Positions 29,834-47,775 of a stretch of 64,000 bases of DNA are shown piece by piece. The notes beneath the pieces are model-generated. The model had not been told where the DNA came from. It saw only the letters and a list, made by a program, of their open reading frames with translations, and did no database searches. Position numbers and translations under genes: made by a program. Origin of the DNA: Candidatus Poribacteria bacterium (GTDB taxonomy: Bacteria > Poribacteria > WGA-4E > WGA-3G); contig OZ243938.1 of NCBI GenBank assembly GCA_965214095.1, positions 2,144,001 through 2,208,000 on the forward strand, read 5' to 3'. Position 1 is the first letter of the stretch; each line of letters starts with the position of its first letter.

Positions 29834-32800
29834 CTACTTCACAATCAACATCTTACGCGTCGCAGAGAAATCGCCAGCGACGAATTTAATGAAATAGATG
29901 CCAGCAGAAACCTTCTCACCGACACCGTTTCTACCATCCCAATACGCCGCGCGACCCCGACTCTTGTAATAACCAACAGGCAATTGTCCAAGAGCAAGCT
30001 CACGCACAACGTCACCTTTCATATTGTAGATGATGAAAGAAACATCAGCAGATTGTGCCAACTGAAACGGAATCCACGTCTCTGGATTAAACGGATTCGG
30101 ATAATTGACCAATACCTGCGTTTCCAAGGGCTTATCCGATATACTCACGGCCGCAATCATGGGGACAGGTACATTCTCAGGTAGCACTTCAATAGGTTCA
30201 CGACTAACGAGATGACCATATCCGGTATGTCCTGGATGATAAACAATAACCTGTTCAATAAATGCGCTAACTGCATTTACATCTTCTGCACTACCCCTCT
30301 CTACAGACAATGTCTCGCTTTCAGTGCCACCGACAGGAATAGTTAGTGTATAGTCTCTAGTGCCTGTTACACCGTCTTGGACTGTTGCCCCGCCTGTGAC
30401 TACTACAAGTATGTTCATTGTGTAAGGTGCACCCGGTTTTAAAACCGCTTTAAACTTACCGTCTGACACTTTTTCAAGGACAGGATTAAGTCTTAAGAAT
30501 GTATCAGGATCACCATTGGATAAATGAAGATACTTCAATGCGGTAAGACCTACGAATAAACCATCTGGAATTGCGGTTAACTGGTTGCTACTCAGGTCAA
30601 GAGTTTCCAGTGATGTGAGTACATTAAATTCGGTACCAGACAAAGAAGTCAATGGATTATCCGACAATACAACTGAAGTCAACTGCGTTAGACTATCAAA
30701 AAAGCCAGAAGGAATTGAGGTTAACCCAATATCAGACAGGATAATTTCGGTGAGCGAGGTTAAATCATCAAACATACCCACTGTGAGCGTTAATGGGTTA
30801 CTTGACAGGTTGATTGATGTCAAAGACGTGATAGCAGACGCAGCATCAGGTATTCCAGACAAACCGTTATCAGCAAGGATTAGGGATGTCAGTGACGAGA
30901 GATCATCAAACAAATCTGATGGCAACGAACTGAAATCAAGTGAACTCATATCAAGCGTTGTCAACGCTGTCAAGTTCTCAAATATATCTGATGCCAGCGA
31001 TGTTATAGGGTTATCTGATATATTTAGATATGTCAACGCTGTGAGTGCATCAAATATATCTGAATGCAATGATGTCAATTCATTTTCGCTCAAATCAAGC
31101 GAGGTTAATATTGTCAACGAATTAAAAATATCCGAGGGTAATGACTCCAGTTCGTTTTCACTCAGATCAAGCTTTTCCAGCACTATCATACTATCAAAAA
31201 CACTTGAGTTTAATGACTGAAGATCGTTGCCATGCAAATCAAGACAGGTCAGTGAACCCAATATATTGAATACCGTTGCCGGCAACGTTCTCAACTTGTT
31301 ATTTGAGAGGTTCAGATTAGTAAGTCTTGGTAGACTGTTAAAGATAGCAACCGGCAATGACTCTATCTGATTCCCATCCCAAATGTTTTCCGCTGACAAA
31401 TCAAGGGTTGTGAGAGATGACAAATCAGCAAAAATACCAGCTGGAAGAGATGTCAACAGATTGTCCTGTAGGTATAACGTTTCCAAAGCAGTTAAACCAT
31501 TAAAATCAATCATTTTCAGATTCGTAATCTCTTTTGATTGCACATCAAGTGTGGTGATACTTTCAAGGTGCGTGGCAGTTATTTGATCCGCTCTGGTTAC
31601 ATTCGGGTCTCCAATCGCAGCAATAATAGCATCAATCACCGCTTGTGTTCGGTCGCCAATTTCGACCGTCTCTGGTTCTACATCAGTGACATTGATTGTC
31701 ACTGGGATGCTTACACTTGGATTCGTGTTGTCAGTCACCGATACAGTTACCGAATAACTTGATTTTACTTCAAAGTTGAGGCTATCCTTTGTCTTTAGCT
31801 GCCCGGTTGAGTCGTCAATATCAAAGGAGTTCATATCAGTGCCACTGAGCGTATACGTCAAGTTATTGTTTTCAGGATCAGTCGCAGAGACAGGAGAACC
31901 GATGTTGATATCTGAGGCACTATTTTCCGCAATACTTCGCGTCGCTGTATTGCCAAGCTCATCAAAGACAGGGGGTTCATTGACATCAGTCACGGTTATC
32001 GTAACAGCAATGGTATCAACGCCACCCCTATTATCACGAACGGTGATGGTAACTGAATAAGATGCCTTATCTTCACGGTCAAGTGCTGACTTCGTCTTTA
32101 ACTGACCTGTTCCGTCATCAATATCAAACGATGCATCGTCTGTCCCACCAAGACTGTATGTGAGGGTATCCCCGTCTTGGTCTGTTGCGGATACTTGGTT
32201 TCCGATATTCTGATTAGCCGCGGTATTTTCAGCAACGGAACGTGTTATGCTTGCCCCTTCTGTAAATACTGGCGCATCATTTTGATTGCTGATATTGATG
32301 GTAACATCAATAGAATCACTGCCGCCTCTGTTGTCTGTGACAGAAACAGAAACAGAATAGGTCGCTTTCGTTTCAAAATCCAGAGCATCCTTTGTTTTGA
32401 TCTGTCCAGAACTATCATCGATATCAAACGATGCATCATCTGTCCCACCGAGACTGTATGTGAGGCTTGTGTCATCCTGATCAGTCGCGGCGACTGGCGT
32501 GCCGATATTTTGATCAGCCGCGGTATTTTCAGCAACGGAACGGGTTGTGCTTGTGCCATCGCTAAATATTGGAGCATCATTCACATTGCTGAGATTGATG
32601 GTAACATCAATTGAATCGCTACCCCCATTATTATCGGTGACAGATACGGTAACGGAATATCTCGGTTTCGTTTCAAAATCCAGCGGTGTTTTTGTTTTGA
32701 TCTGTCCAGAGGTATCGTCAATATCAAACGATGCAGCATCTGTGCCGGTAAGACTGTAGTCCAATGTATCGTCATCCGCATCCTCAGCGGCGACTGGCGT

Positions 32801-35800
32801 GCCTACATCGGTATCTGCTGGACTGTTTTCAGCTACGCTGCGGGTTGTCGTCGCGCCATCCGTAAATGTAGGCGCATTATTTCCAACAATTACCTCTGTG
32901 ACTTCAATGGTGACAGCAATGCTATCACTACCGCCTCTGTTATCTGTAACAGACACAGTAACAGAATGGGTCGGTTTATTACTAAAATCAAGTGCGGATT
33001 TCGTTTTCAATTGCCCCGTGCCTGTGTCAATGTCAAACGAAGCAGCATCTGTGCCAGCAAGACCATAAGTCAGGTTACTGTCATCCTGGTCAGTCGCAGC
33101 AACTGGCGTGCCGATATTTTGATCAGCCGCGGTATTTTCAGCAACGGAACGGGTTGTGCTTGTCCCATCGCTAAATATTGGAGCATCATTCACATTGCTG
33201 ATATTGATGGTAACATCAATTGAATCGTCACCCCCATTGTTATCGGTGACAGATACGGTTACCGAGTATCTCGGTTTTGTTTCAAAATCCAGCGGAACTT
33301 TTGTTTTGATCTGTCCAGAACTATCATCAATATCAAACGATGCAGCATCTGTGCCGTTCAGACTATAAGTCAAAGTATCGTCATCCGCATCCTCAGCGGC
33401 AACTGGCGTGCCTACATCGGTATCTGCTGGACTGTTTTCAGCAACGATTCGGATTGCTGTCGCACCATCCGTAAATGTCGGTGCATTGTTTCCAACAATT
33501 ACCTCAGTGACTTCAATGGTCACAACAATGCTATCACTACCGCCTCTGTTGTCTGTGACAGATACAGTGACAGAGTGTATCGCTTTATTGTCAAAATCAA
33601 GTGCGGATTTCGTTTTCAATTGACCCGTGCCAGTGTCAATGTCAAACGATGCAGCATCCGTGCCACGAAGACTGTATGTGAGGTTTGCGTCATCTTGGTC
33701 AGTCGCAGTAACCGGACTACCGATATTGGTATTTGCTACGGCATTTTCTGGAACGGAACGGGTCGTGCTTATCCCTTCTGTGAATATCGGTGCATCGTTC
33801 ACATTAGAGACGGTTATCGTAACAGCAAGGGTGACAATACCACCGTTGTTATCATCAGCAGACACCACAACCGAATACGATGCTTTCATCTCATGATCAA
33901 GCGCATCCTTCGTTTTCAATTGACCGTTGTTTGGGTCGATGTCAAAGGATAACGCATCCACCCCACTGAGACGATAAGTCAGATTATGCCTGTCTTCATC
34001 CGTTGCAGAGACTGGCGTGCCGATATTGAGATTTGCGTTCGTATTTTCAGCGATGGTGCGCGAAACCGAACCCGATTCTGAAAACACCGGCACATCATTC
34101 TCATTCGTAATGCGTATTTCAACATCAATAGAAGTTGTTCCACCTCTATTATCAGTCGCCGTGATGATGACAGCATATAACGGCTTCGTTTCAAAGTTTA
34201 AGGCATCCTTCGTTCGCAATTGACCGCTTGTGCTATCTATATTAAAGTGCGTTTGATCTGTGCCACCGAGCAGATACGTCAGACTACTATCGTCATCATC
34301 CGTTGCTGCGACCGGTTCACCGATGTTAATTCCTGGTCCCGCATGCTCACGGATGGTGCGGGTTGTGTCCGTGCCATCAGCAAAAGCAGGCGAATCATTG
34401 TCATTCGTCACGTTGATTGTCACGGTGATCCTATCACTCTGATTATTGTCGCTCACGGTTACTATGACAACATATTGCGAATCATCTTCAAAGTCAAGTG
34501 GCGCAAGCGTTTTCAGTTGTCCCGAGTTCGCATCAATGCTGAATGAAGCCGCATCGGTGCCACTTAATACATACCGTAACTGATCACTATCGTCATCCGT
34601 CGCATAGATAGGATTGCCGATGTTTGTATTGGGTGCTGAGTTTTCTGCGATGGTACGGATTGTGCTGGTGCCCTCCGTAAATTCAGGGGCATTGTTAGAA
34701 GGCGTTTCATTGACATTGATTACGGATATCGTCACCGTGGTAGTGTCAGTTCCCTGCTTACTATCGTCCACGGTTATAGTTACCGAATAACGTGGTTTTG
34801 TTTCAAAATCCAAAGCTGAAAATGTGCGTAATTGACCAGTATCTGAATCAATACGAAATGCACTGCCGTCCGTCCCACTAAGGCTATAGATCAAAGTATC
34901 ATTGTCAAGATCCGTAGCAGAAACAGGACTACCGATAGCAACACCCGCGAGGGTATTTTCAGGGATTGAACGTGTTGTACTACTGCCTTCTGTGAACACT
35001 GGCGCGTTGTTCGTATATCTGAGTGTAATAACAACCGTAGTAGACGTGCTACTGCCGCTGCTATCGGTTACAATCACCGTAAACGTATAAGTGGTTTTCG
35101 AGGTGAAGTCAACAGATTCATTTGTGCTAATCTGTCCAGTGGATTCATCAATATCAAAGTATGATGCATCATCGCCACCAAGACTATAGGTCAATGAGTC
35201 GTTATCTTCATCGTTAGCAGACACTGCTGAACCGATGTCAACATTGGCAGAGATCACATTATCTGTAACCTCAATCCGAATGCTGCCACCTTCTGAAAAC
35301 TCAGGTGCATCGTTCTCATCTGTAACATAGATAGTGACATTGATTGTCGCAGTTAGTTTATTGTCGGATACGGAAACAATGACGTTATACGTATTCCTAT
35401 CTTCATAGTTCAACGTTGCCCTTGTTCTCAATTGACCGCTCGTTCTATCAATGTCAAATAGGGACGCATCTGTGCTACTCAGGCTATAGATGAGGGTGTC
35501 GTTATTGACATCTGTTGCGGACACAGGCGTGCCGATATTCGAGCCAACAGAAGCGTTTTCCGACACAGACCGAGACGTAGCCGTTCCATCCCTGAATACG
35601 GGTGCACTATTGATAGGACCTTCCACGATGTCAGTAATAAGGATTGTCACTGTTATTCTATCCACACCCAAATTGCCATCAGAGACAGAAATGGTTACGG
35701 AATAGTTGGATTTACCCTCATAGTCAAGCGGTGCTTGTGTTCGCAACTGTCCCGATGAACTATCAATGCTAAACGATGCGGCATCCTGTCCACTGAGGCT

Positions 35801-38800
35801 ATATGTCAATGTATCGTTATCGGTATCTCTCGCAGACACGGGGTTACCGATATTGACACCCGAGCCAGTGTTTTCAGCAATGGAACGGGTTGATGCAGCA
35901 CCTTCAACAAAGACAGGGGCGCGGTTTTCATTCACATCTCGGATATATATCGTGATCGCGATTGAATCGCTCCCACCATTCCCATCCGACACAGTAACAG
36001 TCACAGAATGGGTGGTTTTGCGTTCATAATCCAAAGATGCCTTGGTATAGATTTGCCCCGTTGTGCTATCAATACTAAATAGCGATGCATCCACACCGCT
36101 GAGTTTATAGGTCAATGTATCATTATCAGCATCGGTTGCGAAAATTGGATTACCAATCTTCACGCCCGATGCTGTGCTCTCCTGTATCGTTCGGGTGGCG
36201 CGTACACCTTCTGTCAATACAGGGGAACGATTTGGCGGGGACTCAAACACATTACGGACAATGATAGCAACTAAAATAGATGCTTCTCCACTATGACTAT
36301 CGGACACAGAGATCGTCACAAGATATGTGGATTTTTCTTCAAAGTCAAGCGGTGCTAATGTGCTGAGTTGCCCCGTTGCACTATCTATAAGAAACGACTC
36401 GACATCTGTGCCACCGAGCGTGTATGTCAATGTGTCGCCATCCGCATCTGTCGCAGACACAGGTTCTCCGATCTTAACACCGAAGGCAGTATTTTCTAAT
36501 ACCGTGCGGGCAGTGCTATCTCCTTCAGTGAACACAGGGGCATCGTTCGTGGCAACCTCATCTACATCAAGAATAAACACTTGAACAGTTATATTTTGAT
36601 TCGGATTCATACCGTCAGAGACGGATATGATGACTGAGTAGCTTGATTTGCTTTCATAATTTAACGGTGCGAGTGTTAGCAATTGCCCCGTTTCCGTATC
36701 AATGTTGAAAGCAGCAGCATCCTCGCCACTGAGCGTATAGGTCAAGGTGTCACCATCGGAATCCGTTGCAGATATCGGTATTCCAATATTTTCGCCTGCA
36801 TCCGTATTTTCAGACGCATAACGGAATGCTGTTCTCCCATCGCTAAATATAGGGGGTTTGTTGTCAAATACGTCTGTGATTGTAATCGTGACACGGATGC
36901 TATCTCTGGCGTTATATATATCCATCACAGAAACGAGAACTGAATACGATCTTTTGCGTTCAAAATCAAGCGGTGCGCGTGTTCGCAACTGTCCCGTTGT
37001 GGTTTCTATGTCAAATATCTCAGCATCTTCACCAGTGAGACGATAGGTGAGGGTATCCTCTTCCGCATCTGTCGCGGTGATAGGGCTGCCGATAGCACTC
37101 CCAGCAGCGGTATTTTCAGCAACAGAACGAGTCGTGTTCATACCCTCGGTAAATATAGGTGCAGTATTGAAACGCGGGATAATTTCTAATTGATAGTCGC
37201 TACCTTTTACAAGCACATACCCTCTATGTAATAGGGGTATAGTCGGCATCTCGCCTAATTCTACAGAAACAGGCTCCTTTGTGCCGGCATCGCGAGTTAC
37301 AGAGAACGGTCTACTTTCAACACTCCCCATCGGCAGTGCGATAGAAGTGATGCCGTCCTCAATTGTGCCATTCTCTATGCTAATCGGCACCTCAATGTCA
37401 AACGGGGCACCCGCAGGGATAATCACGTTGAATGTGCCATCCGCTAGTTTCTCTAATGAGACTGTGAGCGATAGCGGATCTACGCTGTTACCACTCAAAT
37501 CAAGCTCCTTCAGAGAGACCAGCCTGTAGAAAAGACCTTCAGGAAGTTCCTTAATCTCATTGTCTTTTAACGAAAGCGTGGAAAGTGAAAGCATCCCTCT
37601 GAAATCATAGCCTGTGAGTGAAGGAATATCCATATTACTCAGGTCAAGTGCCGTTATCTTCGCAAGGTCAATGTCTGTTATGTTATAGCAATCGGTAACA
37701 TGCGGAACCATCATATTGATCGCATCTGCGACCTGTTTTGTGCGATTACAAACGGTTGATTTCGCGATGACATACCCGAAGTGACCTACAGGTATTCTCG
37801 GCAAAACACCGAAAGTCACATCAATTTCAGCGGATGACTCCGCAACAAAGATGGAACTTATCAAACTCCCTTTCGGTATAGTTACCATAAGCCTTGAAGT
37901 CGTTACCAAACCGTGTTTTATTTCAATCGGGACAACTATATCAAAAGGTGCCCCCGTAGGCACGAAGGCTCGATATTTGCCTTTACTCTCCTTTAGCATT
38001 GAGACAACCAGCGGGAACGGTTCAAGCGTGTTTCTTCCAAGTCGTAACTTTTTCAGGGACGTTAACCCTTCAAAGATGCCGAAAGGAAGTGAAGTCAGTT
38101 GATTGTCGTGCAGATTGATACTTTCTAAACCTGTCAAGCCGGAGAAATCTCCGATCTTGAGTGCTGTCAGCCCGCTTTCTCGTAGGACGAGTTCAGTGAT
38201 CGTTGCTAAATCCGCATCGGTTACTTCCTCCGCAGAATCGACATCCGGGAGTGCGTCAACAATCGCATCACGCACGGCAGGTGTCCGTTCACTTACAGGA
38301 ACTATCATCGGCACATAACCGATGTCATCCGTATTGATTAGAGCAATCAGCACACTGATACTATCAGAAACAGCACCATCCGTTACGAACACTTTCAGAA
38401 AACATACAGACTTCTTTTCATAATCCAGTGCGGATTTCGTCTTTATTTGTCCTGTTTCAGAATTGAGAGTAAATAGGTGTGCATCCGCGCCGTCTAAGGT
38501 ATAGGTCAAACTATCCTCGTCCATATCCGTCGCGGAGACAGCAGGACCGACATTAACACCGGAGGGTGTATTCTCTGGAATCCTACGAATAGCAAACGCA
38601 CCTTCAGGAAACACGGGTGCCCTATTTGTAACCACATCAATAATGACGATTATAGTATCTGTCAGACTACCATCTGAAACTGTAAGATTGAGATAATAGG
38701 TAGATTTGGTTTTGTAGTCTACAGCGGGTTTTGCTTTCAATTGTCCCGTTGCGGTGTCAATATCAAAAAATGCAGCATCTGCACCGTCTATGCTAAACGT

Positions 38801-39982
38801 CAAAGTATCTTTATTCGCATCCGTTGCGGAGACAGGTTCACCGATGGCAGTGCCTGCTATGATGTTATCTGATATTGACCGCCTGGCAATTTCCCCTGAG
38901 AATACGGGTGCTTTGTTTTCTGGCACTTCAATGACAACAACGATTTCGTCTGTTAACTTACCATCAGATACTTTCAGCGTTAGATAATAGGATGACTTGA
39001 CGGTGTAGTCTGTTGATGCTTTCGCTTTCAACTGTCCGTTTGTTGTATCAACATCAAATAGGGCAGCATCCTGTCCACTCAAACTATAGGTGAGTGTATC
39101 ATTTTCAGGATCTGTCGCAGATATAGGTTCCCCGATATTTTCACCCGCCGCTATATTCCGTTTCAAAGAACGCATGGCGATGATACCTTCGCTGAACTCT
39201 GGTGAGGTATTCGGTTCAACTTTCAACACGAGCGGGAGGAGGTCAGACTTGCGGAGATAATACCCAAGATGGATTGCTGGTAACCTTGATAAGGTACTGA
39301 TGTCTACAGATATTTGCTGCGTGGTGCCGGGTGTGCGAGTTACCGTGATGGTTTCGCTGTATAATTTACCGATGGGTATTTTCAGGTTGAACGTATCTCT
39401 CGGCACAGTGCCGCCAGTGATTGTCACGGACACTGTGATATTGAAAGGCGCGCCGGTGGGCATTTCCGCTCTAAATTGGTCGTTTTCAACCGATTTTAGC
39501 GAAACAGCAATCGGAAAAGGACGCAGCAGATTCTGGCTTAATCGCAATGTTTGTAAGGATGTCAAGCCTTCAAATATCTTCGCGGGTAAACGTCTCAATT
39601 TATTGTTAGATAGATTGAGATTTTTCAGTCCTGTTAACCCTGAGAAATCTCCCGTTTTCAATGTAGAGATGTTCTTTGATGCGAGTGTCAGTTCTTGAAT
39701 TTTAGTGAGATGTGTTTCATTTATATCTTCCGCGGCACTCACATCCGGCACGGCTGCAACGATGGCATCTCGTACCTGTTGTGTGCGGTCACTTACCGGT
39801 GTAATGTCAGCATATCCTATATGATTTATGGACAGACCTATCAGCAGGAGTGCCAGAAAGGATATGGTGCTTATTCTATTCAGACTGAGGTTTCGTTGAT
39901 TTGGGTTGTTTGGGTTTACAGAATTGGTTTCTTTTAATTTTTGTTTTTCTTTATTTATATTAATTGTTTTCTGTAAATTCAA
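29834..39982 (-). CDS. Giant secreted cadherin-repeat/LRR adhesin-like protein (3382 aa) with FlgD-Ig/T9SS-like CTD
   Basis: AGGAG RBS with TTG start; signal peptide; about 21 cadherin-like repeats; four LRR blocks; NYPNPFNPETWIPF...RKMLIVK. Confidence 0.93.
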   Translation of the reverse strand: MNLQKTININKEKQKLKETNSVNPNNPNQRNLSLNRISTISFLALLLIGLSINHIGYADITPVSDRTQQVRDAIVAAVPDVSAAEDINETHLTKIQELTLASKNISTLKTGDFSGLTGLKNLNLSNNKLRRLPAKIFEGLTSLQTLRLSQNLLRPFPIAVSLKSVENDQFRAEMPTGAPFNITVSVTITGGTVPRDTFNLKIPIGKLYSETITVTRTPGTTQQISVDISTLSRLPAIHLGYYLRKSDLLPLVLKVEPNTSPEFSEGIIAMRSLKRNIAAGENIGEPISATDPENDTLTYSLSGQDAALFDVDTTNGQLKAKASTDYTVKSSYYLTLKVSDGKLTDEIVVVIEVPENKAPVFSGEIARRSISDNIIAGTAIGEPVSATDANKDTLTFSIDGADAAFFDIDTATGQLKAKPAVDYKTKSTYYLNLTVSDGSLTDTIIVIIDVVTNRAPVFPEGAFAIRRIPENTPSGVNVGPAVSATDMDEDSLTYTLDGADAHLFTLNSETGQIKTKSALDYEKKSVCFLKVFVTDGAVSDSISVLIALINTDDIGYVPMIVPVSERTPAVRDAIVDALPDVDSAEEVTDADLATITELVLRESGLTALKIGDFSGLTGLESINLHDNQLTSLPFGIFEGLTSLKKLRLGRNTLEPFPLVVSMLKESKGKYRAFVPTGAPFDIVVPIEIKHGLVTTSRLMVTIPKGSLISSIFVAESSAEIDVTFGVLPRIPVGHFGYVIAKSTVCNRTKQVADAINMMVPHVTDCYNITDIDLAKITALDLSNMDIPSLTGYDFRGMLSLSTLSLKDNEIKELPEGLFYRLVSLKELDLSGNSVDPLSLTVSLEKLADGTFNVIIPAGAPFDIEVPISIENGTIEDGITSIALPMGSVESRPFSVTRDAGTKEPVSVELGEMPTIPLLHRGYVLVKGSDYQLEIIPRFNTAPIFTEGMNTTRSVAENTAAGSAIGSPITATDAEEDTLTYRLTGEDAEIFDIETTTGQLRTRAPLDFERKRSYSVLVSVMDIYNARDSIRVTITITDVFDNKPPIFSDGRTAFRYASENTDAGENIGIPISATDSDGDTLTYTLSGEDAAAFNIDTETGQLLTLAPLNYESKSSYSVIISVSDGMNPNQNITVQVFILDVDEVATNDAPVFTEGDSTARTVLENTAFGVKIGEPVSATDADGDTLTYTLGGTDVESFLIDSATGQLSTLAPLDFEEKSTYLVTISVSDSHSGEASILVAIIVRNVFESPPNRSPVLTEGVRATRTIQESTASGVKIGNPIFATDADNDTLTYKLSGVDASLFSIDSTTGQIYTKASLDYERKTTHSVTVTVSDGNGGSDSIAITIYIRDVNENRAPVFVEGAASTRSIAENTGSGVNIGNPVSARDTDNDTLTYSLSGQDAASFSIDSSSGQLRTQAPLDYEGKSNYSVTISVSDGNLGVDRITVTILITDIVEGPINSAPVFRDGTATSRSVSENASVGSNIGTPVSATDVNNDTLIYSLSSTDASLFDIDRTSGQLRTRATLNYEDRNTYNVIVSVSDNKLTATINVTIYVTDENDAPEFSEGGSIRIEVTDNVISANVDIGSAVSANDEDNDSLTYSLGGDDASYFDIDESTGQISTNESVDFTSKTTYTFTVIVTDSSGSSTSTTVVITLRYTNNAPVFTEGSSTTRSIPENTLAGVAIGSPVSATDLDNDTLIYSLSGTDGSAFRIDSDTGQLRTFSALDFETKPRYSVTITVDDSKQGTDTTTVTISVINVNETPSNNAPEFTEGTSTIRTIAENSAPNTNIGNPIYATDDDSDQLRYVLSGTDAASFSIDANSGQLKTLAPLDFEDDSQYVVIVTVSDNNQSDRITVTINVTNDNDSPAFADGTDTTRTIREHAGPGINIGEPVAATDDDDSSLTYLLGGTDQTHFNIDSTSGQLRTKDALNFETKPLYAVIITATDNRGGTTSIDVEIRITNENDVPVFSESGSVSRTIAENTNANLNIGTPVSATDEDRHNLTYRLSGVDALSFDIDPNNGQLKTKDALDHEMKASYSVVVSADDNNGGIVTLAVTITVSNVNDAPIFTEGISTTRSVPENAVANTNIGSPVTATDQDDANLTYSLRGTDAASFDIDTGTGQLKTKSALDFDNKAIHSVTVSVTDNRGGSDSIVVTIEVTEVIVGNNAPTFTDGATAIRIVAENSPADTDVGTPVAAEDADDDTLTYSLNGTDAASFDIDDSSGQIKTKVPLDFETKPRYSVTVSVTDNNGGDDSIDVTINISNVNDAPIFSDGTSTTRSVAENTAADQNIGTPVAATDQDDSNLTYGLAGTDAASFDIDTGTGQLKTKSALDFSNKPTHSVTVSVTDNRGGSDSIAVTIEVTEVIVGNNAPTFTDGATTTRSVAENSPADTDVGTPVAAEDADDDTLDYSLTGTDAASFDIDDTSGQIKTKTPLDFETKPRYSVTVSVTDNNGGSDSIDVTINLSNVNDAPIFSDGTSTTRSVAENTAADQNIGTPVAATDQDDTSLTYSLGGTDDASFDIDDSSGQIKTKDALDFETKATYSVSVSVTDNRGGSDSIDVTINISNQNDAPVFTEGASITRSVAENTAANQNIGNQVSATDQDGDTLTYSLGGTDDASFDIDDGTGQLKTKSALDREDKASYSVTITVRDNRGGVDTIAVTITVTDVNEPPVFDELGNTATRSIAENSASDINIGSPVSATDPENNNLTYTLSGTDMNSFDIDDSTGQLKTKDSLNFEVKSSYSVTVSVTDNTNPSVSIPVTINVTDVEPETVEIGDRTQAVIDAIIAAIGDPNVTRADQITATHLESITTLDVQSKEITNLKMIDFNGLTALETLYLQDNLLTSLPAGIFADLSSLTTLDLSAENIWDGNQIESLPVAIFNSLPRLTNLNLSNNKLRTLPATVFNILGSLTCLDLHGNDLQSLNSSVFDSMIVLEKLDLSENELESLPSDIFNSLTILTSLDLSENELTSLHSDIFDALTALTYLNISDNPITSLASDIFENLTALTTLDMSSLDFSSLPSDLFDDLSSLTSLILADNGLSGIPDAASAITSLTSINLSSNPLTLTVGMFDDLTSLTEIILSDIGLTSIPSGFFDSLTQLTSVVLSDNPLTSLSGTEFNVLTSLETLDLSSNQLTAIPDGLFVGLTALKYLHLSNGDPDTFLRLNPVLEKVSDGKFKAVLKPGAPYTMNILVVVTGGATVQDGVTGTRDYTLTIPVGGTESETLSVERGSAEDVNAVSAFIEQVIVYHPGHTGYGHLVSREPIEVLPENVPVPMIAAVSISDKPLETQVLVNYPNPFNPETWIPFQLAQSADVSFIIYNMKGDVVRELALGQLPVGYYKSRGRAAYWDGRNGVGEKVSAGIYFIKFVAGDFSATRKMLIVK

Positions 39983-40219: not shown

Positions 40220-40421
40220 CGGAAAGTCCTGAAAATCCTGGTTCAGACAAAATCCCTGAAAATCCGAGATTCATATACAACCCTTGCATTCAATAAAGTA
40301 GAGTTCAAGATTATCTCCATCACAACACAGAAACAGAAAAATTGTATATCTACATGAAGATTAAGAAATAAATCAGGTAATTTCCTTGAGAAGTCCAGTG
40401 CGGTTAGGAAACCGCACCTAC
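40220..40421. repeat. Family C end and family A REP
   Basis: CCTGAAAATCCTGGTTCAGACAA at ~40228; GTGCGGTTAGGAAACCGCACCTAC at 40398. Confidence 0.7.
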
Positions 40422-40659
40422 CGGGTTTGGGTAAATGAGAATTACCCGTTTAATAAATTAATCTTCATCAAGATATACCCAAAGCAGAAAATACATAAGC
40501 CAAACAAATTGTCCCCCGTGTCCCCTTATCTCTCGGCTCAGAGAACCTTGACCTTGCAAAAGAAACATTCTTACAACGCGGATTTGCTTATATCCGACAA
40601 GAGGACGATATTCACCGATGGACACAATCTGAATAAGCGGATCGTCCAGGTTGAATTGG

Positions 40660-41114
40660 AACGATTGACGGATAGACGGATCGTTTTGATAGCAGGCGCG
40701 CCACTTCCCAACATCACAAACAGACAGGAAACTGCCATCTTCGACTGGGAAGATTTTGAGATCGCAGGCGGATTAGATAAACTCCTTGAAATCATCGCAA
40801 TACGCGAACGTTTTGAACAGGAACGCGAAAACCTAACAGCAGACTCCAGCAGAGAGGAAGTGCAACGCGTATTGGAGTGTTCTCAAAGACAAGCAAACCG
40901 CGTCTTGCAAAGACTTAGAGGTGGGAATATCCCACGTAAAACCTTCAAAGAGCAAATCCTTTCTCTCCTCACGGATGGCGAGAAAAAAACAGCCGAAATC
41001 ACCGCTGCCATTGACGGACATCCAGAAGCGATACAACACGAACTCACCCGCCTTGTAGAGGCAGATGAAATTGTCAGAATCCGCCGCGGTGTATATGCAT
41101 TACCAAAACAATAG
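40660..41114 (+). pseudogene. C-terminal fragment of a DNA-binding protein with tandem HTH/winged-helix
   Basis: REEVQRVLECSQRQANRVLQRL HTH and QILSLLTDGEKKTAEI..HELTRLVEADEIVRIRRGVYAL wHTH. The upstream part of the ORF is translated REP sequence; the 5' boundary is approximate. Confidence 0.55.
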
Positions 41115-41254
41115 CGTAATACAACGCTATTTAATGTTGAAGCCACCCATGCAAAATATTATCCACTGTAGGTCCGGTTTCCTAACCTCATCCACAGTGG
41201 ATAGAAAAGCGGGACACGGATGCCCCGCATTACAATGATTGACGGTATTTGCAC

Positions 41255-41950
41255 TTATCGGGAGTTCTTGATGCCTCCCCATGTCGTTGTGAGCTTAGCT
41301 TTAGGGTCTACGGGATAACTATCGTCGCCGAAGAACTCAATCTCGCCAATTTGAAAGTACGCCCCACCCGGGTTCGCTACGGTGTTAAAAGTAACATGCC
41401 GAAAAAACCGATACCCGACTTTTTGAACATCGAAATCTTCTCCTGCATCAAAACGGACGACTTGCAGTCGCTGATCCCAAAAACTATCGCCGTCGTGAGA
41501 AAAGATGGTTGTAAACTCCTCACCATCGTTAGAGCCCTGAATTTCCCACTCTATAGGATCCCTTGCAGGAGTATCGTTCGCTGAAGATACGGTGAAGTGT
41601 GTCAATGCGTATATCTCATCAAACTCAGCTGTTATATGTAGGCCTTCCTCCGGAATGCCTCCAGCAGGTCCTCAGCACCACTTAGCATTGCCGCCACCAA
41701 GTATGTTATCAAAGACGTTAAACGCAGATTCACCGCCTCCGAATCCGGGTTCATCGTTAGCAGTGAAGATGGCGTTGTAACCTTCATCTGCATCCGCCGC
41801 GCCATCGTCTTCTGGGTCTGTTAGGTCACCGCCAAGCAGTGATTCCGTACCTACTCCCAAGATTTCCTCCGCCTGGGCTATCTGGCTTGTGCCGACAACA
41901 AAAAGTGCCATCATCAACACAAAACCCGCTAATACCACAATATTTTTCAT
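41255..41950 (-). CDS. Secreted discoidin/F5-8-like protein with in-frame UGA (candidate selenoprotein, 231 aa) and KLTTTWG tail
   Basis: The 92-aa and 116-aa ORFs share a frame and are separated only by TGA at 41672-41674 (AKWC*GPAGG). GAGGAG RBS, signal peptide, SANDTPARDPIEWEIQGSNDG..QIGEIEFFG motif. Confidence 0.8.
41628..41671 (-). promoter_or_regulatory. Putative bacterial SECIS element
   Basis: After the UGA: GCUG..AGGC-A-UUCC-GGA-GGAA-G-GCCU..CAGC hairpin; the G-initial loop is 20 nt from the UGA. Confidence 0.55.
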
Positions 41951-42128
41951 TATGTGTGATCTCCTCTAAAGAAATGAATCTCACGTTTACGTGAGTTCAA
42001 ATTAATTGTATGTATTATAACTAATCTTTACTAATCTATTTTCCATCGTAACAAATTACCAAAAATTAGTCAATATTATTTTTGAAGGTGCCAAGATTGT
42101 TTAGTTATCGGTTTTTGTTCAATATTAT

Positions 42129-46707: not shown

Positions 46708-47775
46708 ATGAAATATCCGATAAAAACACAAAAACGGATCCTCTTTATGTCCGTTGCGATAGTATTCTTGTTGGTCTCACTCCAAAATGTCAGTTTCGCT
46801 TTCGGAAAAAGCAAAATATATTGGACACAATGGAATACAATCAGTAGGGCAAATCTGGACGGATCCAACGTTGAAGATGTCATCACAGACCGTTATTTAC
46901 CAGAAGACATTGCGATAGACACACAGAACGGCAAGATATTCTGGATTGAAACGAATGTAGCCGAAGTCGACAACGTCAAACTTGGCACCGGCACAATACA
47001 CAGTGCAGACCCTAATGGTAAGAATATAAAAGAAATAAGCACAGGATATAAAGTTCCACTTGAGGGAGGAAATAGCGGACTGGATTGTTTTCATGGGGTA
47101 TGCAAAGGATACATCCAACCGGAAGGGCAACCAGAAGTTGAATTAGATCCTGAACAACTTTTTAATCCATTCTCCATCGCAATAGATACTGAGAAAAACA
47201 AAATATATTGGGTTGATGAATTTCATGACAACTTTCAACGTGCGAACATTGATGGATCCAAAGTTGAAAATATACGCGACATACGAGGCATAAGAAGAAA
47301 GGATATAGAATTAGATTTGAAGAGAAATAAACTATATTGGCTTTCAGGTAGTTCAATTAGAAGAATGGATGTTAATGGAGACCAGATTGAAGATATTATT
47401 GTAAGATGGAATCCATTTATATTAAACTTTGGTCTGGACGTGACAGCACAACATATCTATTGGACAAGTTCAAGTAGAGGCATAATCCACCGCTCGAATT
47501 TCAATGGAGGTGACATTCAGGAAATTGTCACAGATTTGAAAGAACCCTATCATATCATTGTTGACGCAGAATCACAAAAACTCTACTGGGCAAGTTGGGA
47601 TCGCCAGACAAGCCTCTACAAAATCCAACAAGCGAATCTCGACGGCACAGATGTCACAGATATCGTTACCGATTTACAGAGAATAAATGGACTCGCTTTA
47701 GATACAGCAGGCATATACAATGTTTCATCCAAGGATAAGCTAACAACGACTTGGGGAAACATAAAAGTTGAGTGA
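46708..47775 (+). CDS. Secreted LDL-receptor YWTD-type beta-propeller with KLTTTWG tail
   Basis: KIYWT..ISRANLDGSNVED repeats; C-terminal KLTTTWGNIKVE. Confidence 0.88.
   Translation: MKYPIKTQKRILFMSVAIVFLLVSLQNVSFAFGKSKIYWTQWNTISRANLDGSNVEDVITDRYLPEDIAIDTQNGKIFWIETNVAEVDNVKLGTGTIHSADPNGKNIKEISTGYKVPLEGGNSGLDCFHGVCKGYIQPEGQPEVELDPEQLFNPFSIAIDTEKNKIYWVDEFHDNFQRANIDGSKVENIRDIRGIRRKDIELDLKRNKLYWLSGSSIRRMDVNGDQIEDIIVRWNPFILNFGLDVTAQHIYWTSSSRGIIHRSNFNGGDIQEIVTDLKEPYHIIVDAESQKLYWASWDRQTSLYKIQQANLDGTDVTDIVTDLQRINGLALDTAGIYNVSSKDKLTTTWGNIKVE

What the first reader, a model, noticed from the sequence alone, without database searches (positions are those of the whole stretch)
41255..41950. Candidate new selenoprotein family: secreted discoidin-like protein with vicinal Cys-Sec (KWCUG) and SECIS-like hairpin
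Seen: two ORFs in one frame split only by UGA right after a Cys. Read-through gives a coherent 231-aa protein from signal peptide to KLTTTWGGIK tail with no other lesion. A stem-loop with a G-initial loop starts 20 nt after the UGA, fitting the bacterial SECIS model. Established: CU/UC motifs are redox or metal-reactive, and most known bacterial selenoproteins are oxidoreductases. Inference: an exported lectin-fold protein with Sec would be unusual. The alternative is a TGY>TGA nonsense mutation in a Cys-Cys motif.
Basis: partly seen in the sequence, partly recalled or inferred. Interest (0 to 1): 0.8.

Follow-up and report, generated by a model that had tools for sequence, protein, structure and literature searches.

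The report
New exported Cys-Sec lectin-fold selenoprotein
A sponge-symbiont bacterium (Candidatus Poribacteria) makes a secreted, sugar-binding-type protein whose in-frame TGA "stop" is almost certainly read as selenocysteine next to a cysteine, which adds an apparently unlisted family to the bacterial selenoproteins and points to the reactive centre of a widespread protein module of unknown function.

Summary
On the minus strand (41950..41255) one frame gives a 231-aa protein with a single in-frame TGA (41674..41672) straight after Cys92 (KWC-U-G).

Evidence that the TGA encodes selenocysteine:
- In 65 family copies extracted from Poribacteria genomes, this column is TGA in 28 and TGC/TGT in 37, never anything else.
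- TGA forms occur in 22 of 40 genomes of the window's genus. The genome's own paralogue has one too.
- The genome has SelA, SelB, tRNA-Sec and a Sec-containing SelD.
- dN/dS after the TGA is about 0.2, the same as before it.
- A 19-nt hairpin with a GGN loop 20 nt after UGA meets the published bacterial SECIS constraints. It is kept in all 28 TGA forms and has decayed in most Cys forms. Among copies encoding the same GIPEEGL peptide, 7 of 7 Sec forms share one nucleotide version, while 19 Cys forms use 11 others.

The hairpin shows weak covariation and is not thermodynamically exceptional.

The protein has a confident CBM32/discoidin fold. Its vicinal Cys-Cys is invariant in a widespread module, which usually carries a PEP-CTERM anchor.

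No such family appears in the 2026 catalogue of 119 prokaryotic selenoprotein families, and NCBIfam has no match. This scan had not noted it before.

Function is inferred only: a redox-active or metal-binding Cys-Sec centre.

The parts
41255..41950 (-). Complete coding sequence of the 231-aa selenoprotein precursor (ATG 41950..41948, TAA 41257..41255), read with TGA93 = Sec
   Evidence: Homologues of the same length occur across Poribacteria.
41870..41950 (-). N-terminal signal-peptide-like segment (residues 1-27, MKNIVVLAGFVLMMALFVVGTSQIAQA|EE)
   Evidence: Read from the sequence: a basic N-terminus, a hydrophobic helix and an AQA motif. The model shows helix 2-19 at low confidence. No signal-peptide predictor was available.
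41675..41677 (-). Cys92 codon (TGC), first residue of the vicinal pair
   Evidence: Invariant in 56 of 56 aligned sequences, remote homologues included.
41672..41674 (-). In-frame TGA = Sec93
   Evidence: The column is TGA in 28 and TGC/TGT in 37 of 65 copies.
41641..41659 (-). SECIS-like hairpin GGCAUUCC-GGA-GGAAGGCC (7 pairs with one A.G mismatch, GGA loop at +24..+26 from the U of UGA)
   Evidence: conserved only in TGA forms. It meets the bSECIS constraints quoted in PMC13188914 section 5.
41323..41866 (-). Conserved module, about residues 29-209: acidic N-terminal stretch (GGDLTDPEDDG), FNVFDN...KWC[C/U] motif and CBM32/discoidin-like beta-sandwich
   Evidence: Model pLDDT is 93-98 over residues 30-210. 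Foldseek hits are CBM32, a GH92 accessory domain, galactose oxidase domain 1 and muskelin discoidin. 1618 representative clusters match at E <= 1e-3.
41258..41314 (-). C-terminal tail PVDPKAKLTTTWGGIKNSR, a lineage-specific tag standing where remote homologues carry a PEP-CTERM anchor
   Evidence: 60 ORFs in the genome end with the same tail motif. Remote homologues have VPEPS + TM + RRR at this place.
41209..41228 (-). Intrinsic-terminator-like hairpin (8 pairs, 6 GC, followed by a T-rich tail, TTTTCTATCC) 27 nt after the TAA stop
   Evidence: It follows the full read-through frame, not the TGA.
41961..41965 (-). Shine-Dalgarno-like AGGAG 10 nt before the ATG
   Evidence: Read from the sequence.
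42045..42073 (-). Sigma-70-like promoter match (TTGACT-17-TACGAT, with TG before the second hexamer)
   Evidence: This is a consensus match only; the number of such sites in the region is no higher than in shuffles.

Best explanation
This is a genuine selenoprotein gene. The UGA at 41674..41672 is decoded as selenocysteine by the organism's SelB and tRNA-Sec, guided by a small in-frame hairpin (GGCAUUCC-GGA-GGAAGGCC) whose G-rich loop lies 20 nt downstream. The product is a 231-aa exported protein with three parts: a signal peptide; a roughly 180-residue module made of an acidic N-terminal stretch and a CBM32/discoidin-type beta-sandwich; and a lineage-specific C-terminal tag that replaces a PEP-CTERM anchor. 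The module's hallmark is an invariant vicinal Cys-Cys after a conserved Trp (KWCC). In one Poribacteria genus the second Cys became Sec (KWCU). The SECIS arose from the coding sequence for G-I-P-E-E-G, which is nearly self-complementary and needed only two or three synonymous changes. The following are shown: the recoding signature, the Sec machinery, purifying selection, the fold and the invariance of the pair. The function is inferred, at about 35-40% confidence: the Cys-Sec pair forms a redox-active selenenylsulfide/selenolthiol centre on a lectin-like scaffold at the cell surface, chemically like the GCUG end of animal thioredoxin reductase. It would act on, or bond covalently and reversibly to, an extracellular ligand. 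Binding of a soft metal or metalloid is the main functional alternative. The confidence given (0.88) is for the Sec-decoding claim, not for the function.
For: Cys/Sec alternation:
- Among 65 family copies the column after KWC is TGA in 28 and TGC/TGT in 37, with no other codon.
- TGA forms occur in 22 of 40 genomes of the window's genus. They include two subtypes (12+2 type A, 14 type B) that are only about 74% identical.

Sec machinery in the genome:
- SelA, 538.8 bits.
- SelB wing domain, 71.7 bits.
- tRNA-Sec, 78.1 bits, about 150 nt after selB.
- SelD with its own in-frame TGA.
- A second known selenoprotein, DUF3179, also with an in-frame TGA.

Selection and transcription unit:
- dN/dS downstream of the TGA in Sec forms is 0.24, against 0.20 upstream. 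In Cys forms the figures are 0.19 and 0.16.
- The terminator follows the full frame.

Hairpin:
- All 26 Sec forms tested keep it at dG <= -5.0 (means -8.2 and -8.3). The 32 Cys forms average -0.7.
- In type A, codons +5..+11 show zero synonymous variation. The 11-codon window starting at +5 is the lowest of 212 windows (0.044 against a gene mean of 0.234). In Cys forms the corresponding +1..+11 region is at 0.328 against 0.268.
- Among copies encoding the identical GIPEEGL peptide, 7 of 7 Sec forms use one 21-nt version, while 19 Cys forms use 11 other versions. Only 1 of those 19 reaches -7.5 kcal/mol.
- The hairpin meets the four published bSECIS constraints: loop 3-9 nt, stem 4-16 bp, G in the first two loop positions, spacing 16-37 nt, MFE <= -7.5 (PMC13188914 section 5; values).
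- The SelD and DUF3179 genes of the same genome have hairpins with loop G at +21..+25.

Fold and module:
- The AF2 model has pLDDT 88 and hits CBM32-type structures at E down to 6e-10.
- C92 and C93 are two of 11 invariant columns in 56 sequences.
- 173 of 201 domain hits in 150 representative proteins have [K/R/T]-[W/F/Y/L/S]-C-C.
Against: - No direct evidence of selenium incorporation or of translation past the UGA.
- Covariation in the hairpin is weak. RNAalifold keeps only the 4-bp core. On my 8-pair structure only 2 pairs show two-sided changes, and 58 of 500 shuffles reach that.
- In the single window sequence the local fold is no better than shuffles (z -0.15).
- Six of 14 type-B minimal hairpins are weaker than -7.5 kcal/mol (-5.0 to -7.2).
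- No Rfam family matches.
- One genome with a Sec form (G016, 95% complete, 300 contigs) gave no SelA match.
- The functional reading has no support beyond analogy. No redox partner or conserved neighbour was found. Coordinates of the model could not be inspected, so the 3D environment of the pair is unknown.
Confidence: 0.88

Rival explanations
1. The UGA is a real stop, or is read through at a low level by a near-cognate tRNA (Trp or Cys). In the first case the gene makes a 92-residue secreted N-terminal peptide and perhaps a separately initiated C-terminal domain. In the second case a full-length protein is made without selenium.
For: No experimental proof of Sec insertion. An alternative TTG start exists 23 codons after the TGA. 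The hairpin is small, shows little covariation and is not thermodynamically exceptional.
Against: A C-terminal product started at the TTG would lack a signal peptide and the invariant N-terminal half of the module. The residues between the TGA and the TTG are conserved at the protein level, and synonymous sites there are frozen only in TGA forms. The hairpin meets the bSECIS constraints and the full Sec machinery is present. Homologues show only Cys at this column, never Trp or Gly.
Confidence: 0.07
2. This is a fresh nonsense mutation in a Cys-Cys motif, that is a pseudogene, or else an assembly or sequencing error.
For: TGC>TGA is a single base change, and outgroup homologues are all Cys-Cys. 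Degenerate copies do exist. G002 has a frameshifted copy, and G001's only copy has a TGA at a Trp codon.
Against: The same TGA is found in 28 copies from 22 genomes assembled independently, several of them single-contig. dN/dS downstream is about 0.2. Some genomes, including G000, G005 and G016, have only TGA forms. No other lesion is present.
Confidence: 0.02
3. This rival concerns function only and accepts Sec. The Cys-Sec pair is a binding site for a soft metal or metalloid (Hg, Cu, As, Cd or an organometal) on a surface-displayed scaffold, not a redox catalyst.
For: In the 2026 catalogue most families with an adjacent CU motif are metal- or organometal-related: CopZ-type form 2, MerB-like SaoL, HgcA, SaoC and MbdU. 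The protein has no other Cys and no flavin or thioredoxin-like domain. Sponges are known to accumulate metals (recalled, not from a call).
Against: No similarity to any of those families (NCBIfam scan). No metal-resistance or transport genes are nearby. The CC pair is invariant in more than a thousand clusters from many habitats, which suits a general structural or catalytic role better than a niche detoxification role.
Confidence: 0.25

Closest known systems
CBM32 / F5/8 type C (discoidin) carbohydrate-binding modules (for example Clostridium perfringens GH89 CBM32-5, PDB 4a41/4a44, and the accessory domains of GH92 mannosidase 7nsn)
   Same: The same beta-sandwich fold: Foldseek E 6e-10 to 1e-7, target TM 0.73-0.74, 154 aligned columns. 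Pfam PF00754 matches weakly here and is precomputed for many Cys homologues. The profile search of PDB sequences finds 7nsn.
   Different: Identity is only 12-21%. There is an extra acidic N-terminal stretch of about 60 residues. The invariant vicinal Cys-Cys/Cys-Sec after the conserved Trp was not found in any solved structure by sequence search. Sugar binding is untested.
Vicinal Cys-Sec redox centres of animal selenoproteins: the thioredoxin reductase C-terminal GCUG and the selenoprotein N SCUG (motifs recalled from memory). Bacterial SelenoN-like genes with C-U-G in Poribacteria were noted earlier in this scan (e1-3522230).
   Same: An adjacent Cys-Sec followed by Gly (here W-C-U-G). A selenenylsulfide couple is expected by analogy.
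   Different: Unrelated fold and context: an internal loop of a lectin-like exported domain, against the flexible C-terminal tail of a flavoenzyme or a thioredoxin-like ER protein. The SECIS is bacterial and sits in the coding frame. No look-alike of this protein was found among earlier scan findings.
Catalogued bacterial selenoprotein families with an adjacent CU motif: CopZ-type 2Fe-2S form 2, MerB-like SaoL, HgcA, SaoC, SaoB, MbdU and KCU-star/DUF466 (PMC13188914 Table 1)
   Same: Bacterial origin, a single Sec directly after Cys, and Cys-Cys homologues.
   Different: No sequence relationship. The NCBIfam scan, which holds those NF models, returned no significant family. Fold and cellular location also differ.
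Other exported selenoproteins of Poribacteria: DUF3179 (UxxC) in this same genome, and tandem Sec-peroxiredoxins and a thioredoxin-TPR fusion noted in earlier scan findings
   Same: The same organism group, the same machinery, a signal peptide, and an in-frame hairpin with a G-containing loop at +21..+28.
   Different: Those belong to known redox or catalogued families. This one is a lectin-fold module not listed as a selenoprotein.

Membership tests
Bacterial selenoprotein (UGA decoded as Sec through an in-frame bSECIS) | In-frame UGA aligned with Cys in homologues | tested here: met
   28 TGA and 37 TGC/TGT among 65 copies, with no other codon. Remote homologues are all Cys-Cys.
Bacterial selenoprotein (UGA decoded as Sec through an in-frame bSECIS) | bSECIS model: 3-9 nt apical loop, 4-16 bp upper stem, G in the first two loop positions, 16-37 nt between UGA and the loop, MFE <= -7.5 kcal/mol (PMC13188914, Fig. 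2 legend) | tested here: met
   Window copy: loop GGA (3 nt), 7 pairs, GG at loop positions 1-2, 20 nt spacing, -7.9 kcal/mol. Type B: 17 nt spacing, and 8 of 14 copies at <= -7.5 on the minimal hairpin. bSECISearch itself was not available.
Bacterial selenoprotein (UGA decoded as Sec through an in-frame bSECIS) | Genome encodes SelA, SelB, tRNA-Sec and SelD | tested here: met
   A strong SelA match (E <= 5e-129) was found in 58 of 61 related genomes.
Bacterial selenoprotein (UGA decoded as Sec through an in-frame bSECIS) | Sequence downstream of the UGA is under purifying selection as coding sequence | tested here: met
   dN/dS is 0.24 downstream and 0.20 upstream in 24 Sec forms.
Bacterial selenoprotein (UGA decoded as Sec through an in-frame bSECIS) | Selenium actually incorporated (75Se labelling or mass spectrometry) | not testable with these tools
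   The organism is uncultured. RNA-library contigs only show that family transcripts are present, and they cannot tell Sec from Cys forms.
F5/8 type C (discoidin) / CBM32 domain | Pfam PF00754 at or above the gathering score | tested here: not met
   26.3 bits against a cut-off of 28.2, E 8.5e-6. Many Cys homologues carry a precomputed PF00754 hit.
F5/8 type C (discoidin) / CBM32 domain | Galactose-binding-domain-like beta-sandwich fold | tested here: met
   Model pLDDT 88. The top Foldseek hits are CBM32 and discoidin structures, with probability 1.00.
F5/8 type C (discoidin) / CBM32 domain | Binds carbohydrate (or lipid) through loops at one end of the sandwich | not testable with these tools
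PEP-CTERM sorting-signal proteins (the name NCBI gives to some family members) | C-terminal P-E-P motif, a hydrophobic transmembrane helix, then an Arg-rich cluster | tested here: not met
   The window protein ends PVDPKAKLTTTWGGIKNSR, with no hydrophobic helix. Remote homologues do end in VPEPS + helix + RRR at the same place. NCBIfam gives no PEP-CTERM hit for this protein.
Catalogued CU-motif selenoprotein families (SaoC, SaoL, SaoB, HgcA, MbdU, KCU-star, CopZ form 2) | Match to the family's NCBIfam, TIGRFAM or Pfam model | tested here: not met
   The NCBIfam scan at E <= 1 returned only a spurious 13.9-bit signal-peptide hit. Pfam returned only discoidin models.

The most novel reading that the evidence does not exclude
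The natural Cys-to-Sec swap marks the invariant KWCC pair of a widespread, uncharacterised, mostly PEP-CTERM-anchored lectin-fold module as a catalytic redox centre. More than 1600 representative clusters contain the module, often as 2-3 copies in giant surface proteins. That would define a new class of extracellular, glycan-directed thiol/selenol oxidoreductases or covalent adhesins. It would also capture the recent birth of a selenoprotein, including a SECIS element made from the pre-existing, nearly self-complementary codons for G-I-P-E-E-G by two or three synonymous changes.
Probability: 0.3. Interest if true: 0.8.

Novelty: new member of a known kind. Interest (0 to 1): 0.62.

Why it matters
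Most bacterial selenoproteins are thioredoxin-fold or metal-cofactor enzymes. A selenocysteine in an exported lectin-type beta-sandwich is unusual.

Sec/Cys pairs are an established pointer to catalytic redox cysteines (recalled). This one therefore gives the first functional clue for the KWCC module, which has 1618 representative clusters at E <= 1e-3 and no known function.

The family is also a clean natural example of how a selenoprotein arises. Outgroups are all Cys-Cys. The Sec forms are confined to one genus. The SECIS differs from the Cys-form coding sequence by only a few synonymous changes, and some Cys forms still carry hairpin remnants.

In practical terms, public annotation splits or truncates these genes, so the exported selenoproteome of sponge symbionts is undercounted.

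Tried and rejected
- **Rfam:** a scan of 41200-42100 at E <= 10 gave no SECIS-type family. The only hit was a chance CRISPR-DR29 match (E 2.9) on the terminator hairpin.
- **RNAalifold:** on the 26 Sec forms it returned only the 4-bp core with no compensatory pairs. My 8-pair structure gave weak covariation.
- **Single-sequence folding:** not better than shuffles.
- **First structure model:** the model from 48 close homologues was poor around the Cys-Sec loop (pLDDT 60.9). A more diverse alignment fixed this.
- **PDB sequence search:** it found only 7nsn, over residues 106-168, and nothing covering the CC region.
- **14-nt pattern search in the phylum:** extra hits were checked and are chance matches in other frames (L065-L071). 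Hits in the sister genus g13 (8 of 65 genomes) do not lie at the family loci listed, and they occur at about the rate of the control pattern.
- **GTDB-wide 23-nt degenerate pattern:** 30 hits. All 7 outside Poribacteria are not family members. This pattern cannot find Sec forms whose next residue is not Gly, so Sec forms of the module in other phyla are not excluded.
- **Conserved neighbours:** none shared across 31 loci with flanks of about 1.5 kb. The neighbours in the window are cadherin/LRR, AbiEi-like, FRG, TPR, LDL-receptor-repeat and PD40 proteins.
- **Sequencing runs:** RNA-library contigs from three studies carry 80-95% relatives across the whole gene, including the TGA site. No difference at the TGA appears in the rows printed, but 264 rows were not shown, so Sec and Cys transcripts could not be told apart. 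This says nothing either way about expression of this copy.
- **ESM Atlas look-up:** the tool does not accept a read-through protein, so no Atlas look-up was made.
- **Alternative genetic codes (TGA = Trp or Gly):** rejected. Homologues show only Cys at the column, and long genes in the genome are open under table 11.
Full report
**Observation.** The feature lies on the minus strand. Under table 11 there are two ORFs in one frame: 41950..41672 (92 aa, ending ...GGGNAKWC) and 41605..41255 (116 aa from a TTG). Reading the single TGA through gives a 231-residue protein with one recoded position, U93, in NAKWC-U-GPAGG, and no other lesion. The TGA is at 41674..41672 and the preceding TGC (Cys92) at 41677..41675. 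Its loop starts 20 nt after the UGA and its stem 12 nt after. An AGGAG lies 10 nt before the ATG. A terminator-like hairpin (8 pairs, then a T-rich tail) follows the TAA of the full frame at 41228..41209.

**Cys/Sec alternation.** The window is G000:C1:2144001-2208000. The same genome holds a 74%-identical paralogue at C1:635945-636613 that also has one TGA, in KWC-U-GPANLPAGG. In 60 relatives, 33 genomes have homologues, many marked '1 TGA' and many 'none'. I extracted every copy from the loci delivered plus 20 further regions and aligned them. Of 63 copies, the column after KWC is TGA in 26 and TGC or TGT in 37, with nothing else. Two more TGA copies came from G108 and G109, giving 28 of 65.

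The TGA forms fall into two subtypes:
- Type A, KWCUG[PR]xGG[IF]P[EA]EGL: 12 copies plus the 2 later ones.
- Type B, one codon shorter, KWCUG[PF]xxLP[AE][GE]GI: 14 copies.

They come from 22 of the 40 genomes of the window's genus that were searched. Some genomes (G000, G005, G016) have only TGA forms.

**Distribution.** In 176 genomes of the phylum the family is found in 99: family f1 93 of 111 (genus g1 32 of 39, g13 60 of 65, g12 1 of 1), f4 4 of 7, and f3 1 of 29. Among the 150 rows listed, every '1 TGA' row is from genus g1; 46 rows were not listed. A 14-nt pattern for KWC-TGA-G hits 24 of 39 g1 genomes. In g13 it hits 8 of 65, none at a family locus listed and at about the rate of the reversed control pattern. 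The extra hits I fetched are chance matches in other frames.

A 23-nt degenerate pattern over one genome for each of 185,579 species gave 30 hits:
- 23 in Poribacteria: 22 intact family copies and one frameshifted copy.
- 7 in other phyla, none a family member.

Source names call the Cys homologues 'discoidin domain-containing protein' or 'PEP-CTERM sorting domain-containing protein [Candidatus Poribacteria bacterium]'.

**Sec machinery.** The genome encodes the following:
- SelA (538.8 bits).
- SelB (wing domain 71.7 bits, in a 652-aa frame).
- tRNA-Sec (78.1 bits against a gathering score of 47, about 150 nt after selB).
- SelD with an in-frame TGA in KCAG-U-ASK.
- DUF3179, a catalogued selenoprotein, which also carries a TGA (WU-PLC).

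A strong SelA match (E <= 5e-129) is present in 58 of 61 related genomes. The three without one are G013 (81% complete), G025 (73%) and G016 (95%, 300 contigs), and G016 has a Sec form. Because the whole order uses Sec, no Sec-less control group exists.

**The hairpin: evidence for.**
- On the 21 nt from codon +5, all 26 Sec forms tested keep the hairpin. Type A has mean -8.2 (range -11.8 to -7.9) and type B mean -8.3 (range -11.0 to -5.0). The 32 Cys forms with the same spacing average -0.7 (range -7.9 to +7.9).
- In type A, codons +5 to +11 show no synonymous variation at all. The 11-codon window starting at +5 is the lowest of 212 windows (0.044 against 0.234 for the gene). In 28 Cys forms of the same genus the +1..+11 region is above the gene mean (0.328 against 0.268). 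In type B the core codons are low but the window is not the gene's minimum.
- The cleanest test uses copies that encode the identical heptapeptide GIPEEGL. All 7 Sec forms use one 21-nt version, GGCAUUCCGGAGGAAGGCCUA. The 19 Cys forms use 11 other versions, with mean -2.68 kcal/mol, and only 1 of 19 is at or below -7.5.
- The hairpin satisfies the four constraints of the published bacterial SECIS model as quoted in the Fig. 2 legend of PMC13188914 (section 5 read). For the window copy these are loop 3 nt, 7 pairs, GG at the loop start, 20 nt spacing and -7.9 kcal/mol.
- The SelD and DUF3179 genes of this genome have hairpins with loops CGGGU (+20..+24) and CGUGU (+24..+28). Loop G therefore falls at a similar distance in all three genes.

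**The hairpin: evidence against.**
- RNAalifold keeps only 4 pairs with no compensatory change.
- On my 8-pair structure 84.9% of cells pair, against 31-67% when the partners are slid. Only 2 pairs have two-sided changes, and 58 of 500 shuffles reach that.
- The window sequence alone folds no better than shuffles (z -0.15).
- 6 of 14 type-B minimal hairpins are weaker than -7.5.
- Rfam has no match.

**Selection and history.** By Nei-Gojobori counting, dN/dS downstream of the TGA (from codon +13) is 0.24 in 24 Sec forms, against 0.20 upstream. In 36 Cys forms it is 0.19 against 0.16.

A DNA tree of 60 copies was built with 3 partial rows left out and with the Sec column and hairpin codons removed. 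It was rooted on seven of the nine copies from the sister family f4. Sec and Cys forms interleave: 11 changes by parsimony, with at least 4 forced by well-supported branches. Tandem paralogues of one genome sometimes cluster together, so gene conversion probably blurs the tree.

All outgroup copies (f4; the listed g13 rows; remote phyla) are Cys-Cys. Sec is therefore the derived state. The usual Cys-form sequence GGC AUU CC[AG] GAA GAA GGU CUA differs from the Sec-form hairpin only at synonymous sites. Several Cys forms nested among Sec forms keep partial hairpins of -5.2 to -7.9, as expected after reversion.

**The protein.** With remote homologues added (56 sequences) the model reaches pLDDT 88, and 93-98 over residues 30-210. 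W91-C92 form a short strand, and U93 opens an 11-residue loop (93-103) before the long strand 104-122.

Foldseek places the model with CBM32 modules, the accessory domains of GH92 mannosidase 7nsn, galactose oxidase domain 1 and the muskelin discoidin domain (E 6e-10 to 1e-6, 12-21% identity). The profile search of PDB sequences finds only 7nsn, and not over the CC region.

The module is widespread: 1618 representative clusters match at E <= 1e-3 and 185 at <= 1e-30. It often occurs as 2-3 copies inside proteins of up to 3906 residues. Of 201 domain hits in 150 of those proteins, 173 have Cys-Cys at the two columns: 161 as K-W-C-C, and the rest with F, Y, L or S in place of W or with R or T in place of K. 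A further 16 hits do not cover the columns (15 have a gap at all five motif columns and 1 has only the first), and 12 have other residues. In the 56-sequence alignment C92 and C93 are two of only 11 invariant columns. The mature window protein has no other cysteine.

Remote homologues end in a true PEP-CTERM signal (VPEPS, a hydrophobic helix, then RRR). The Poribacteria copies instead end in PVDPKAKLTTTWGSIKNxR, a tail shared by 60 ORFs of this genome.

**Novelty.** Table 1 of the 2026 review PMC13188914 lists 119 families and subfamilies; I read section 7, parts 1 and 2 of 3. It has no discoidin, CBM32 or PF00754 entry. Its CU-motif families are CopZ form 2, SaoL, HgcA, SaoC, SaoB, MbdU and KCU-star. 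The 2022 review PMC9312934 has no occurrence of 'discoidin' or 'galactose-binding' (term search only).

NCBIfam release 20, which holds the NF models of those families, gives no hit. Full-text searches returned nothing relevant in their listings. The searches were:
- Poribacteria + selenoprotein
- selenoprotein + discoidin + SECIS
- sponge + symbiont + selenocysteine + selenoproteins
- selenoprotein + PEP-CTERM
- CBM32 + selenocysteine
- Poribacteria + selenocysteine

I did not see the supplementary tables of the primary surveys. Earlier findings of this scan show other exported selenoproteins in Poribacteria, including SelenoN-like genes with C-U-G. No look-alike of this protein was found among them.

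**Mechanism.** The following are shown: the recoding signature, the machinery, selection, the fold and the invariance of the pair. Sec insertion by SelB at this hairpin is inferred with high confidence.

The function is inferred with moderate to low confidence. Sec almost always replaces a catalytic or metal-binding Cys (recalled). The pair is therefore probably a reactive centre: a vicinal selenenylsulfide/selenolthiol couple like GCUG of thioredoxin reductase (recalled), carried on a lectin-like surface scaffold. Soft-metal binding is the main alternative, as in most catalogued CU families. No partner gene is conserved nearby.

**Limits.**
- There is no proteomic or labelling evidence.
- RNA-library contigs from three studies contain relatives spanning the site but cannot tell Sec from Cys forms.
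- Model coordinates could not be inspected.
- Sec forms of the module outside Poribacteria were sought only with a Gly-after-Sec pattern.

Noticed in passing
Genome-wide; in the window 41258-41314 (-) and the end of ORF 46708-47775 (+): 60 ORFs of this genome, mostly 230-350 aa, end in the same tail: (V/L)(E/D)P-xx-K-L-(T/A)-T-T-W-G-x-(I/L)-K plus 2-5 residues. Remote homologues of the finding's protein carry a true PEP-CTERM signal at exactly this place. The tail therefore looks like a Poribacteria-specific C-terminal sorting or anchoring tag that lacks a transmembrane helix.
   Followed up: partly
window 29834-39982 (-): A 3382-aa open frame with 21 cadherin-domain stretches, LRR repeats, bacterial Ig domains and a weak Por_Secre_tail/FlgD_ig C-terminus. 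It is a giant eukaryote-like surface protein and ends about 1.3 kb beyond the 3' end of the finding's gene.
   Followed up: no
L028 (G001:C3:623242-623934): The only family copy of genome G001 is a Cys-Cys form that still has the full Sec-type hairpin (-7.9 kcal/mol). It also carries a TGA at a conserved Trp codon (TE-U-EVQGS). It is either a recent revertant turned pseudogene or a sequencing error.
   Followed up: no
L103 (contig_30 of a Poribacteria MAG, which matches G002:C30 around 33129): A Sec-type copy with KWC-TGA-G and a hairpin disrupted by small insertions and frameshifts. It is a degenerate copy or carries long-read indel errors.
   Followed up: no
G000:C1:4989200-4989585 and C1:1272212-1273138: tRNA-Sec lies about 150 nt downstream of selB. 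SelD is itself a selenoprotein (KCAG-U-ASK) with a hairpin whose CGGGU loop is at +20..+24.
   Followed up: partly
G016 (a genome of the same genus): It carries a type-B Sec form (L042), yet no SelA match was found in this genome, which is 95% complete in 300 contigs. The likely cause is an assembly gap.
   Followed up: no
window 41200-41233 (-): A weak Rfam CRISPR-DR29 match (16.1 bits, E 2.9) coincides with the terminator hairpin of the gene. It is taken as chance.
   Followed up: yes
window 40386-41114 (+): A 242-aa ORF with an AbiEi_4 antitoxin-type C-terminal match (E 8.7e-6) converges on the 3' end of the selenoprotein gene. No partner toxin gene was looked for.
   Followed up: no
window 41200-42000, coded runs X16, X18, X19: RNA-library contigs of three sponge or metagenome studies contain 80-95% identical relatives of the gene at high word depth across the whole coding sequence. 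The family therefore seems well represented in metatranscriptome libraries.
   Followed up: partly
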